This document shows, piece after piece, positions 29,233 to 31,477 of a stretch of DNA of 64,000 nt (the stretch's first letter is position 1; each line of letters begins with the position of its first letter). The DNA is taken from assembly GCF_003334405.1 (NCBI RefSeq), contig NZ_QOWM01000001.1. One strand, given 5' to 3'. Below the pieces are notes generated by a model. It was given only the letters and a program-made list of their open reading frames with translations, ran no database searches and was not told where the DNA came from. This DNA is from Escherichia coli (GTDB lineage: Bacteria > Pseudomonadota > Gammaproteobacteria > Enterobacterales > Enterobacteriaceae). Made by a program: the position numbers and the translations under genes.

Positions 29233-31257
<2,025 letters not shown>

Positions 31258-31258
31258 G

Positions 31259-31477
31259 ATGGAAAAAGAGCAGCTGATTGAAATAGCCAATACGATAATG
31301 CCGTTTGGCAAATACAAAGGGCGTCGCTTAATCGACCTGCCGGAGGAGTATCTGCTGTGGTTTGCCCGCAAAGATGAGTTCCCGGCAGGGAAGCTCGGTG
31401 AGCTAATGCAAATCACGCTGCTGATTAAAACCGAGGGGCTGACGCAACTGGTCCAGCCCCTGAAGCGTCCGCTTTAA
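31259..31477 (+). CDS. ypeB: small conserved protein YpeB (72 aa, DUF3820-like)
   Basis: ATG 1 nt after the ligA stop (MEKEQLIEIANTIMPFGKYKGRRL...); not in the ORF track in this frame. The overlapping 103-aa track ORF 31166-31477 is a different frame. Confidence 0.8.
   Translation: MEKEQLIEIANTIMPFGKYKGRRLIDLPEEYLLWFARKDEFPAGKLGELMQITLLIKTEGLTQLVQPLKRPL

What the first reader, a model, noticed from the sequence alone, without database searches (positions are those of the whole stretch)
31255..31477. ypeB is tightly coupled to ligA and shares a TTAA stop with convergent yfeH
The 72-codon ypeB ATG begins 1 nt after the ligA stop (tgaGatg), implying translational coupling of an uncharacterised small basic protein to DNA ligase. 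Its stop codon and that of the convergent yfeH overlap within the palindrome TTAA. The ligA linkage suggests a possible nucleic-acid-related function for YpeB.
Basis: partly seen in the sequence, partly recalled or inferred. Interest (0 to 1): 0.3.

Follow-up and report, generated by a model that had tools for sequence, protein, structure and literature searches.

The report
ypeB: small gene behind ligA
This is the already-annotated E. coli gene ypeB, a 72-residue protein of unknown function that sits one base after the DNA ligase gene and overlaps the end of the opposing yfeH gene by four bases; the layout is real but ordinary, and it is confined to the enterobacteria.

Summary
The sequence observation is correct. 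ligA ends with TGA at 31255-31257, ypeB starts with ATG at 31259 and ends with TAA at 31475-31477 (72 codons). The stop of the convergent yfeH is the reverse complement of 31474-31476, so both stops lie in TTAA. Only "basic" is overstated: the pI is 8.0 and the net charge about +0.5.

The window is E. coli. All three genes are annotated in all 5426 complete genomes, and yfeH-ypeB is already listed as a convergent "excludon".

ligA lies directly upstream of ypeB in 57 of 57 Enterobacterales loci. It is absent from 24 of 24 other gammaproteobacterial loci, where the upstream genes are unrelated. The linkage is therefore one inherited arrangement and weak evidence for function.

A separate link to DNA metabolism exists. 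YpeB is a Pfam PF12843 (DUF3820) protein under strong purifying selection. Its residues 12-38 share a motif with the non-catalytic C-terminal tail of exonuclease X and of phage and bacterial DnaQ-like exonucleases. No solved structure resembles the model.

Translational coupling is plausible because the E. coli Shine-Dalgarno sequence is weak, but it is untested. A GC-rich hairpin in the ypeB 3' end probably terminates yfeH transcription.

Verdict: known gene, ordinary layout, low interest.

The parts
29242..31257 (+). ligA CDS (NAD-dependent DNA ligase, 671 aa); its TGA stop is at 31255-31257
   Evidence: ORF list; RefSeq annotation of identical DNA
31248..31251 (+). Weak Shine-Dalgarno-like GGGU inside the last ligA codons, 7 nt before the ypeB ATG
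   Evidence: Duplex with the 16S 3' end is -3.7 kcal/mol in E. coli, against -7 to -8 for GGAG/GGGAG at the same place in Enterobacter, Lelliottia, Leclercia and others
31258..31258 (+). Single-nucleotide spacer (G) between the ligA stop and the ypeB start
   Evidence: Sequence; spacing of -8 to +4 nt in 42 of 57 Enterobacterales loci
31259..31477 (+). ypeB CDS, 72 aa, Pfam PF12843 (QSregVF_b / DUF3820)
   Evidence: Translation; Pfam E=4.4e-29 over model positions 2-66 of 66; 894 representative clusters at E<=1e-3; dN/dS 0.03-0.08; AF2 mean pLDDT 95
31292..31372 (+). Codons 12-38 of ypeB: the FGKYKG...YLxWF motif shared with the ExoX C-terminal tail (ExoX residues 172-201)
   Evidence: BLASTP E=8e-5; hhalign 80% probability, E=1.4e-5 over 27 columns; NCBIfam PRK06309 and PRK06310 local hits, E=7e-7 and 5e-6; Pfam ExoX-like_C only E=0.18
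31434..31461 (.). GC-rich hairpin inside the ypeB 3' end. The arms are AGGGGCTG (31434-31441) and CAGCCCCT (31454-31461). On the minus strand it is followed by UCGGUUUU (the A-run at 31426-31429). It is the candidate intrinsic terminator of yfeH.
   Evidence: Folding. Mean dG is -16.7 kcal/mol in 25 loci where a convergent gene overlaps or abuts ypeB, against -8.2 and -6.3 elsewhere. Function is inferred, not shown.
31474..31477 (.). TTAA tetranucleotide holding the ypeB stop (TAA, + strand) and the yfeH stop (TAA, - strand)
   Evidence: Sequence. The same 4-nt overlap occurs in 21 Enterobacteriaceae loci as TTAA x12, CTAG x3, TTAG x3 and CTAA x3.
31474..32472 (-). yfeH CDS (bile acid:sodium symporter family, 332 aa), convergent with ypeB
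   Evidence: ORF list; annotation; listed with ypeB as a convergent excludon in E. coli MG1655 (PMC12288877)
30896..30912 (+). sigma-54 motif TTGGCATTGTCGTTGCA inside ligA, in sense orientation. The paper gives 343 bp from its predicted transcription start site to the ypeB start. It is ChIP-seq site IS30 of Bonocora et al. 2015.
   Evidence: PMC4591121; exact match in the window; the extended consensus is not conserved in relatives

Best explanation
ypeB is the last gene of the ligA transcription unit of Enterobacterales. It encodes a real, strongly conserved 8.4 kDa soluble helical protein of the DUF3820 / PF12843 family.

In E. coli its start codon lies 1 nt after the ligA stop and is preceded by only a weak Shine-Dalgarno sequence. 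Most YpeB synthesis is therefore probably started by ribosomes that have just terminated on ligA (termination-reinitiation). This would tie YpeB output to LigA translation. That step is inferred.

The gene order is an ancestral arrangement of one bacterial order, not a family-wide functional linkage.

The protein's N-terminal half carries the FGKYKG...YLxWF motif. The same motif forms the non-catalytic C-terminal tail of exonuclease X and of other DnaQ-type 3'-5' exonucleases, and it occurs in many phage proteins. The most likely role is a small binding or docking module acting in DNA metabolism, not an enzyme. This is inferred with low confidence.

Because ypeB and yfeH share their stop codons, there is no intergenic terminator. 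Each transcript must end inside the other gene, giving antisense 3' overlap. A GC-rich hairpin followed by a U-run in the last 50 nt of ypeB, read on the yfeH strand, is the likely yfeH terminator.
For: Anatomy.

Real gene: Pfam E=4e-29; 894 clusters at 50% identity; dN/dS 0.03-0.08; pLDDT 95.

Operon and coupling: 1-nt spacer; SD duplex of -3.7 kcal/mol in E. coli; tight junction in 42 of 57 Enterobacterales loci, with ATG and GTG starts interchanging; ypeB and ligA fall in the same co-expression module (PMC11446759 Table 3).

Lineage restriction.

Motif homology with exonuclease tails: NCBIfam PRK06309 and PRK06310; PHROG 192 and 3628; BLASTP and hhalign to ExoX residues 172-201; ExoX residues 174-203 match Pfam ExoX-like_C; the crystallised ExoX truncation (residues 1-167), which lacks the C-terminal tail, retained activity (PMC3753628).

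Transcript overlap: yfeH-ypeB is one of 165 convergent excludons seen in at least 50% of 58 transcriptomes (PMC12288877).

Hairpin.
Against: No expression, ribosome-profiling or mutant data for ypeB were found in the searchable literature.

Many relatives carry a good GGAG upstream of the start, and 15 of 57 loci have lost the tight junction. Coupling is therefore not essential to the gene.

A ChIP-mapped sigma-54 site inside ligA could give ypeB its own transcript.

The ExoX similarity covers only about 27 columns. Its Pfam ExoX-like_C score is not significant (E=0.18).

Neighbours outside Enterobacterales give no support for a DNA role.

The hairpin correlation is confounded by phylogeny and GC content. 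The loop is long (12 nt) and the U-run is short.
Confidence: 0.6

Rival explanations
1. ypeB is translated independently of ligA, from its own ribosome-binding site and possibly its own transcript. In that case the 1-nt spacing is only genome compaction with no regulatory meaning.
For: Relatives have a GGAG/GGGAG at the right distance (-7 to -8 kcal/mol). Lineages with 14-236 nt spacers, or with the ~1.5 kb insertion (a nupC-family gene in the one locus examined), keep an intact conserved ypeB. RNA polymerase with sigma-54 binds inside ligA in the sense orientation, with a predicted start site 343 bp upstream of the ypeB start (PMC4591121). Eight of 24 neighbouring co-directional pairs are just as tightly packed.
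Against: E. coli itself has only GGGU (-3.7 kcal/mol). The strong sigma-54 consensus is not conserved even in E. albertii or in a second E. coli lineage. ypeB clusters with ligA in co-expression analysis.
Confidence: 0.3
2. YpeB is a dedicated partner or regulator of DNA ligase A. On this reading the conserved adjacency reflects a physical LigA-YpeB interaction at nicks.
For: Adjacency holds in 57 of 57 Enterobacterales loci. Stoichiometric coupling is plausible. The motif is shared with DNA exonuclease tails.
Against: LigA is universal in bacteria, yet YpeB homologues outside Enterobacterales are never next to it (0 of 26) and sit behind unrelated genes. The module is promiscuous in phage proteins of many kinds. 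No interaction data were found.
Confidence: 0.1
3. The shared TTAA and the convergent overlap form a regulatory excludon, in which transcription of ligA-ypeB and of yfeH repress each other.
For: Overlapping transcripts were detected in at least half of 58 RNA-seq samples (PMC12288877). The 4-nt overlap is kept across Enterobacteriaceae with all four permitted tetranucleotides.
Against: The 4-nt overlap is self-stabilising, because any mutation in it extends a protein, so its conservation needs no regulatory role. Such overlaps are common (2 of 10 sampled convergent pairs). An embedded hairpin suggests that transcription is terminated and not left to collide. There is no evidence of anti-correlated expression.
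Confidence: 0.15

Closest known systems
Pfam PF12843 (QSregVF_b, formerly DUF3820); E. coli K-12 YpeB (b4546)
   Same: It is this gene. The window is identical to annotated E. coli DNA, and the protein gives a full-length Pfam match.
   Different: Nothing differs. The family has no tested function, and the name 'quorum-sensing-regulated virulence factor' is not backed by anything found here.
C-terminal tail of exonuclease X (Pfam PF20600 ExoX-like_C) and of DnaQ-like exonucleases (NCBIfam PRK06309 and PRK06310; PHROG 192)
   Same: They share the motif FGKY[KR]G...YL.W over about 27-30 residues. In ExoX this region lies outside the catalytic core and is absent from the crystal structure.
   Different: YpeB stands alone with no exonuclease domain and has two further conserved helices (residues 45-68) that do not align with ExoX. 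The Pfam ExoX-like_C score is not significant (E=0.18).
Translationally coupled operon gene pairs (stop-start overlaps such as ATGA or TGATG, or spacers of 1-4 nt)
   Same: The genes are on the same strand with a 1-nt spacer and a weak independent SD. Serratia and Edwardsiella have the classic TGATG form at the same junction.
   Different: Dependence of ypeB translation on ligA translation has not been shown.
Convergent gene pairs with 4-nt stop-codon overlap, also called convergent excludons (for example exoX-ptrB in E. coli)
   Same: Both have a [TC]TA[AG] tetranucleotide holding both stops, with overlapping 3' transcript ends.
   Different: No mutual regulation is documented. The candidate terminator lies inside the smaller gene.

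Membership tests
Pfam PF12843 (QSregVF_b / DUF3820) | Significant full-length match to the family HMM | tested here: met
   E=4.4e-29, 100.6 bits, model positions 2-66 of 66
Pfam PF12843 (QSregVF_b / DUF3820) | Small stand-alone protein of about 70-130 aa with the conserved PFGK...P..Y..W...P.G.LG core | tested here: met
   In 115 homologues, P15, G17, P28, P42 and G47 are invariant, and M14, G21, L27, Y31, W34, G44, L46, G60 and L61 are at least 90% conserved. Most hits are 67-130 aa.
ExoX-like C-terminal module (Pfam PF20600) | Significant match to the PF20600 HMM | tested here: not met
   E=0.18 over 9 residues, whereas ExoX itself scores 3e-13
ExoX-like C-terminal module (Pfam PF20600) | Profile-level similarity of the motif region | tested here: inconclusive
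   hhalign gives 80% probability, E=1.4e-5, over only 27 columns. BLASTP gives 8e-5. NCBIfam exonuclease models give 7e-7 and 5e-6.
ExoX-like C-terminal module (Pfam PF20600) | Located C-terminal to a DEDDh (RNase_T) exonuclease domain | tested here: not met
   YpeB is 72 aa with no other domain
Translationally coupled gene pair | Same strand, with stop and start within a few nucleotides and no room for a terminator or promoter | tested here: met
   TGA-G-ATG
Translationally coupled gene pair | Weak or absent independent ribosome-binding site | tested here: met
   -3.7 kcal/mol in E. coli. Relatives often have a stronger site, so this feature is species-specific.
Translationally coupled gene pair | Downstream translation depends on upstream translation | not testable with these tools
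   This needs reporter fusions with premature ligA stop codons
Convergent excludon | Overlapping transcripts from convergent neighbours | tested here: met
   The CDSs overlap by 4 nt. The pair is listed among 165 convergent excludons present in at least 50% of 58 E. coli RNA-seq samples (PMC12288877).
Convergent excludon | Mutually exclusive expression or RNase III processing | not tested
   No data found
Intrinsic terminator (for the hairpin at 31434-31461, minus strand) | GC-rich stem followed by a U-run | tested here: inconclusive
   The stem is 8 bp with 6 G-C pairs, and the local fold is about -16 kcal/mol, followed by UCGGUUUU. The loop is 12 nt, and the consensus scan did not report the site.
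Intrinsic terminator (for the hairpin at 31434-31461, minus strand) | Mapped RNA 3' ends at the site | not testable with these tools
sigma-54 promoter (30896-30912) | GG-N10-GC motif bound by sigma-54 in vivo | tested here: met
   Exact motif in the window; ChIP-seq peak IS30, PSSM 10.5 (PMC4591121)
sigma-54 promoter (30896-30912) | Conservation beyond what the coding sequence imposes | tested here: not met
   GG and GC are fixed by the Gly and Ala codons. The flanking consensus bases (TGGCA, TTGCA) vary even in E. albertii and in another E. coli lineage.

The most novel reading that the evidence does not exclude
YpeB is a free-standing copy of the docking module that tethers ExoX-type 3'-5' exonucleases to a shared partner in DNA repair or replication. 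In enterobacteria its dose would be set by LigA translation through coupling, so that it modulates the choice between nick processing and nick sealing.
Probability: 0.1. Interest if true: 0.5.

Novelty: already known. Interest (0 to 1): 0.15.

Why it matters
As it stands it matters little. The gene, its position and its overlap with yfeH are already in every E. coli annotation, and the pair is in a published excludon catalogue.

The useful outcomes are three. First, the ligA linkage is limited to one bacterial order, so it should not be used as guilt-by-association evidence. Second, the best lead to function for this y-gene is its motif homology with the uncharacterised C-terminal tail of ExoX and of DnaQ-like exonucleases. 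Third, where a convergent gene abuts ypeB, the ypeB coding sequence carries a strong hairpin that may act as the neighbour's terminator. This is a small example of coding sequence doubling as a transcription signal.

Tried and rejected
1. Longer ORF. A 103-aa ORF starts at GTG 31166 and is annotated as such in some genomes (P0001-P0003). I rejected it because it overlaps ligA out of frame, and homologues in all Enterobacterales begin at the ATG or GTG next to the ligA stop.

3. Conserved neighbours outside Enterobacterales. Clustering of flanking ORFs in 24 loci found no cluster shared beyond a genus. NCBIfam names for ten upstream genes are unrelated to one another.

4. Defence-system membership. 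No PADLOC hits.

5. sigma-54 promoter as a conserved feature. Not conserved.

6. Literature on E. coli YpeB. Searches for ypeB returned almost only the unrelated Bacillus spore protein YpeB. Only three papers mention E. coli ypeB, each within a gene list or table.

7. SoxS/MarA regulation of ligA-ypeB, suggested by the co-expression module. The two papers opened matched 'liga' only as 'ligation', so this was not resolved.

8. The first genome scan with a 115-sequence alignment failed because no stretch was conserved enough. It was repeated with 20 closer sequences.

Full report
**Observation.** The window sequence at 31100-31650 and the ORF table show three genes. ligA is at 29242-31257 on the + strand and ends in TGA (31255-31257). 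A single G follows at 31258. An ATG at 31259 opens a 72-codon ORF that ends in TAA at 31475-31477. yfeH lies on the - strand at 31474-32472, and its TAA is the reverse complement of 31474-31476. The four bases TTAA (31474-31477) therefore hold both stop codons.

A 701-bp query across the site is 100% identical to many E. coli chromosomes. It is present in all 5426 complete E. coli genomes, where the features are annotated as ligA, ypeB (DUF3820 family protein) and yfeH. The one inaccuracy is "basic": the protein has 11 K/R and 10 D/E, a pI of 8.0 and a charge of +0.5 at pH 7.

**Is the layout unusual?** It is not. In 40 kb of annotated E. coli DNA around the site, 8 of 24 co-directional CDS pairs are 4 nt or less apart. 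Among ten convergent pairs in that stretch and in an unrelated 20-kb stretch, two overlap by exactly 4 nt (ypeB/yfeH and, by coincidence, exoX/ptrB) and one abuts. The pair yfeH-ypeB is already listed among 165 convergent "excludons", meaning overlapping transcripts seen in at least 50% of 58 MG1655 RNA-seq samples (PMC12288877).

**Is ypeB a real gene?** It is.
- It gives a full-length Pfam match to PF12843 (QSregVF_b, formerly DUF3820) at E=4.4e-29.
- An exhaustive search of 1.84 billion representative proteins finds 894 clusters at E<=1e-3. Nearly all are stand-alone proteins of 67-130 aa.
- An alignment of 115 of them has invariant P15, G17, P28, P42 and G47, and a near-invariant core M-P-F-G-K-Y-x-G...L-P-x-x-Y-L-x-W-F.
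- For codons 1-38, dN/dS against other enterobacteria is 0.03-0.08.
- AlphaFold2 with this alignment gives a confident model (mean pLDDT 95). It has helix 3-11, a small beta-hairpin carrying the FGKYKG turn, and helices 29-38, 45-58 and 62-68.
- The longer 103-aa ORF from GTG 31166, annotated in some genomes, is rejected. Homologues throughout Enterobacterales start at the codon next to the ligA stop.

**Conservation of the ligA linkage.** A scan of one genome per species (GTDB r220) returned 80 loci. With the E. coli reference locus, 57 loci are from Enterobacterales, covering Enterobacteriaceae, Erwiniaceae, Yersiniaceae, Pectobacteriaceae, Hafniaceae, Morganellaceae and Budviciaceae. All 57 have ligA immediately upstream on the same strand, usually preceded by zipA.

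The 24 loci from other Gammaproteobacteria have no ligA within 5 kb. These include Vibrio, Photobacterium, Salinivibrio, Pseudomonas, Microbulbifer, Tolumonas, Catenovulum, Endozoicomonas, Oleiphilus, Dasania and Algibacillus. Two divergent homologues traced to their contigs also lack it. In those genomes the homologue is again often the tightly packed last gene behind a co-directional neighbour. The neighbours differ, however: Nudix hydrolase, alpha/beta hydrolase, YejK, LrgB, CusF-like, MsrB or unknown.

But the adjacency is one inherited arrangement within a single order. It cannot count as repeated, independent association with ligase.

**The junction.** Stop-to-start spacing is -8 to +4 nt in 42 of 57 Enterobacterales loci. 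Forms include TGAgATG, TAAATG, TGATG and TAATG, and ATG and GTG starts interchange. Spacing is 14-236 nt in 10 loci (Yersinia, Hafnia, Pectobacterium, Morganella, Budvicia, Acerihabitans). It is about 1.5 kb in 5 loci (Photorhabdus, Xenorhabdus, Arsenophonus). In the one locus examined, Photorhabdus L026, the insert encodes a NupC-family nucleoside transporter.

The best pairing of the 16S 3' end with the 18 nt before the start is only -3.7 kcal/mol in E. coli (GGGU). It is -7 to -8 kcal/mol in many relatives, where the last LigA codons read GGAG or GGGAG. With a 1-nt spacer there is no room for a terminator or promoter. Co-transcription with ligA is therefore forced, unless a promoter lies inside ligA.

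Termination-reinitiation coupling is the most economical reading for E. coli. It is inferred and not shown, and the lineages with long spacers show that the gene does not depend on it. ypeB and ligA fall in the same co-expression module in a transcriptome study of resistant E. coli strains. That module also contains many SoxS/MarA/Rob-regulon genes (PMC11446759 Table 3).

**A possible internal promoter.** Bonocora et al. (PMC4591121) mapped a sigma-54 ChIP-seq peak (IS30) to TTGGCATTGTCGTTGCA inside ligA, in sense orientation. They give 343 bp from its predicted transcription start site to the ypeB start. The motif is at window 30896-30912. In 56 relatives the GG and GC core dinucleotides are fixed by the Gly and Ala codons of the conserved peptide V-G-x-V-V-A. 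The flanking consensus bases vary, even in E. albertii and in a second E. coli lineage. I regard it as a coding-sequence by-product until transcription from it is shown.

The informative signal is local. Residues 10-42 match the C-terminal parts of two NCBIfam "DNA polymerase III epsilon"-type exonuclease models: PRK06309 at positions 184-214 of 232 (E=7e-7), and PRK06310 (E=5e-6). They also match PHROG 3628 (E=3e-9) and, weakly, PHROG 192 "DNA polymerase exonuclease subunit".

E. coli ExoX, fetched from MG1655, aligns over its residues 172-201 (TTFTFGKYRGKAVSDVAERDPGYLRWLFNN) with YpeB residues 12-38. BLASTP gives E=8e-5. hhalign with a small ExoX-tail alignment gives 80% probability and E=1.4e-5 over 27 columns. 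That ExoX segment is Pfam ExoX-like_C (residues 174-203, E=3e-13). YpeB itself scores only E=0.18 on that model.

The ExoX crystal structure covers residues 1-167, and this truncation retains activity (PMC3753628). The tail is therefore non-catalytic, and its structure and role remain unknown.

A 630-aa metagenomic protein (P0123) consists of about eleven tandem copies of a short form of the module. It matches PHROG 192 at E=7.5e-33 and many small phage protein families. A 262-aa hypothetical protein of Serratia phage MyoSmar carries the motif internally.

The motif is thus a promiscuous small module. It occurs alone, appended to DnaQ-like exonucleases, and in assorted phage proteins. This gives YpeB a real but modest association with DNA metabolism that does not depend on its position next to ligA. 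I propose that it is a binding or docking module and not an enzyme. Confidence in that is low.

**The 3' end.** The 4-nt overlap with yfeH is found in 21 Enterobacteriaceae loci. All four tetranucleotides that can encode two opposed stops are used: TTAA x12, CTAG x3, TTAG x3 and CTAA x3. Meanwhile YpeB length varies from 70 to 72 aa. Such an overlap is self-stabilising, since any change lengthens one protein, so its persistence needs no special function.

Because no intergenic DNA exists, each transcript must end inside the other gene. The last 50 nt of ypeB contain a hairpin: AGGGGCUG (31434-31441) pairs with CAGCCCCU (31454-31461). On the yfeH strand it is followed by UCGGUUUU.

Across 53 Enterobacterales loci, the local fold averages -16.7 kcal/mol in the 25 loci where a convergent gene overlaps or abuts ypeB. 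It averages -8.2 where yfeH is 27-131 nt away and -6.3 where yfeH is absent (Mann-Whitney p about 1e-6). This contrast largely follows family boundaries, so it is confounded by phylogeny.

Three cases argue that the hairpin tracks the abutting neighbour. Two Pantoea loci with an abutting yfeH (L029, L035) have a strong hairpin built from a shifted 5' arm, while Pantoea and Erwinia loci with a spacer mostly do not. A Siccibacter locus that lacks yfeH but has another abutting convergent ORF keeps the hairpin. I interpret it as the probable yfeH terminator embedded in ypeB coding sequence. No 3'-end data were available to test this.

**Comparison with known things and verdict.** The feature is E. 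coli K-12 ypeB (b4546), a member of PF12843. Membership was tested and met. It is not a member of ExoX-like_C by the Pfam criterion, and it lacks the exonuclease domain, although it shares the motif. The junction has the anatomy of a translationally coupled pair, with dependence untested. The 3' overlap belongs to the common class of 4-nt convergent overlaps and is already catalogued as an excludon.

Nothing here is new in kind. Its inference of coupling is reasonable. Its inference of function from the ligA linkage is weak, although a nucleic-acid connection is supported by other evidence. Interest is low.

Noticed in passing
window 30896-30912 (+), inside ligA: The sigma-54 motif TTGGCATTGTCGTTGCA is ChIP-seq site IS30 of Bonocora et al. 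2015. The paper puts its predicted transcription start site 343 bp upstream of the ypeB start. The GG and GC core is imposed by the conserved V-G-x-V-V-A codons. The extended consensus is not conserved in E. albertii, in another E. coli lineage or in other enterobacteria.
   Followed up: partly
window 31434-31461 (hairpin) and 31426-31429 (A-run on the + strand, U-run on the - strand): A strong GC-rich hairpin lies inside the ypeB coding 3' end. Across Enterobacterales it is strong (about -17 kcal/mol) where a convergent gene overlaps or abuts ypeB, and weak otherwise. Two Pantoea loci achieve it with a shifted arm. It is a candidate embedded terminator for yfeH.
   Followed up: partly
L082:11121-11783 (exoX) and 11780-13840 (ptrB), E. 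coli MG1655: exoX carries the motif most similar to YpeB. It also ends in a 4-nt overlap with a convergent gene (ptrB), and that pair is listed as an excludon too. This is probably coincidence, but it shows how common the layout is.
   Followed up: no
P0123 (630 aa, metagenomic protein): This protein is made of about eleven tandem copies of a short form of the FGK[YH][KR]G...Y[VI].W module. It matches PHROG 192 (DNA polymerase exonuclease subunit) at E=7.5e-33. Its origin and context were not examined.
   Followed up: no
L026:3721-4917 (Photorhabdus); the same ~1.5 kb gap occurs in L040, L045, L046 and L049: In L026 a NupC-family nucleoside transporter gene lies between ligA and ypeB, which breaks the tight junction while ypeB stays intact. 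The other four loci (Photorhabdus, Xenorhabdus, Arsenophonus) have a gap of the same size that was not annotated.
   Followed up: partly
L072:4998-5210 (+) and 5207-6412 (-), gammaproteobacterial MAG: Here a ypeB homologue unrelated in context also overlaps a convergent downstream gene by 4 nt. That gene is a Rieske-type oxygenase-like protein.
   Followed up: no
PMC11446759 Table 3 (literature): ypeB and ligA sit in one co-expression module with soxS, soxR, rob, sodA, zwf, fpr, nfo, fldA, fldB and fumC. This hints that ligA-ypeB may respond to the SoxS/MarA/Rob stress regulators. I could not confirm it with the papers I was able to open.
   Followed up: partly
window 31166-31477 (+): A 103-aa ORF from GTG 31166 extends ypeB upstream, out of frame, over the ligA 3' end. 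Some genome records annotate it as the protein (P0001-P0003), which appears to be a start-site mis-annotation.
   Followed up: yes
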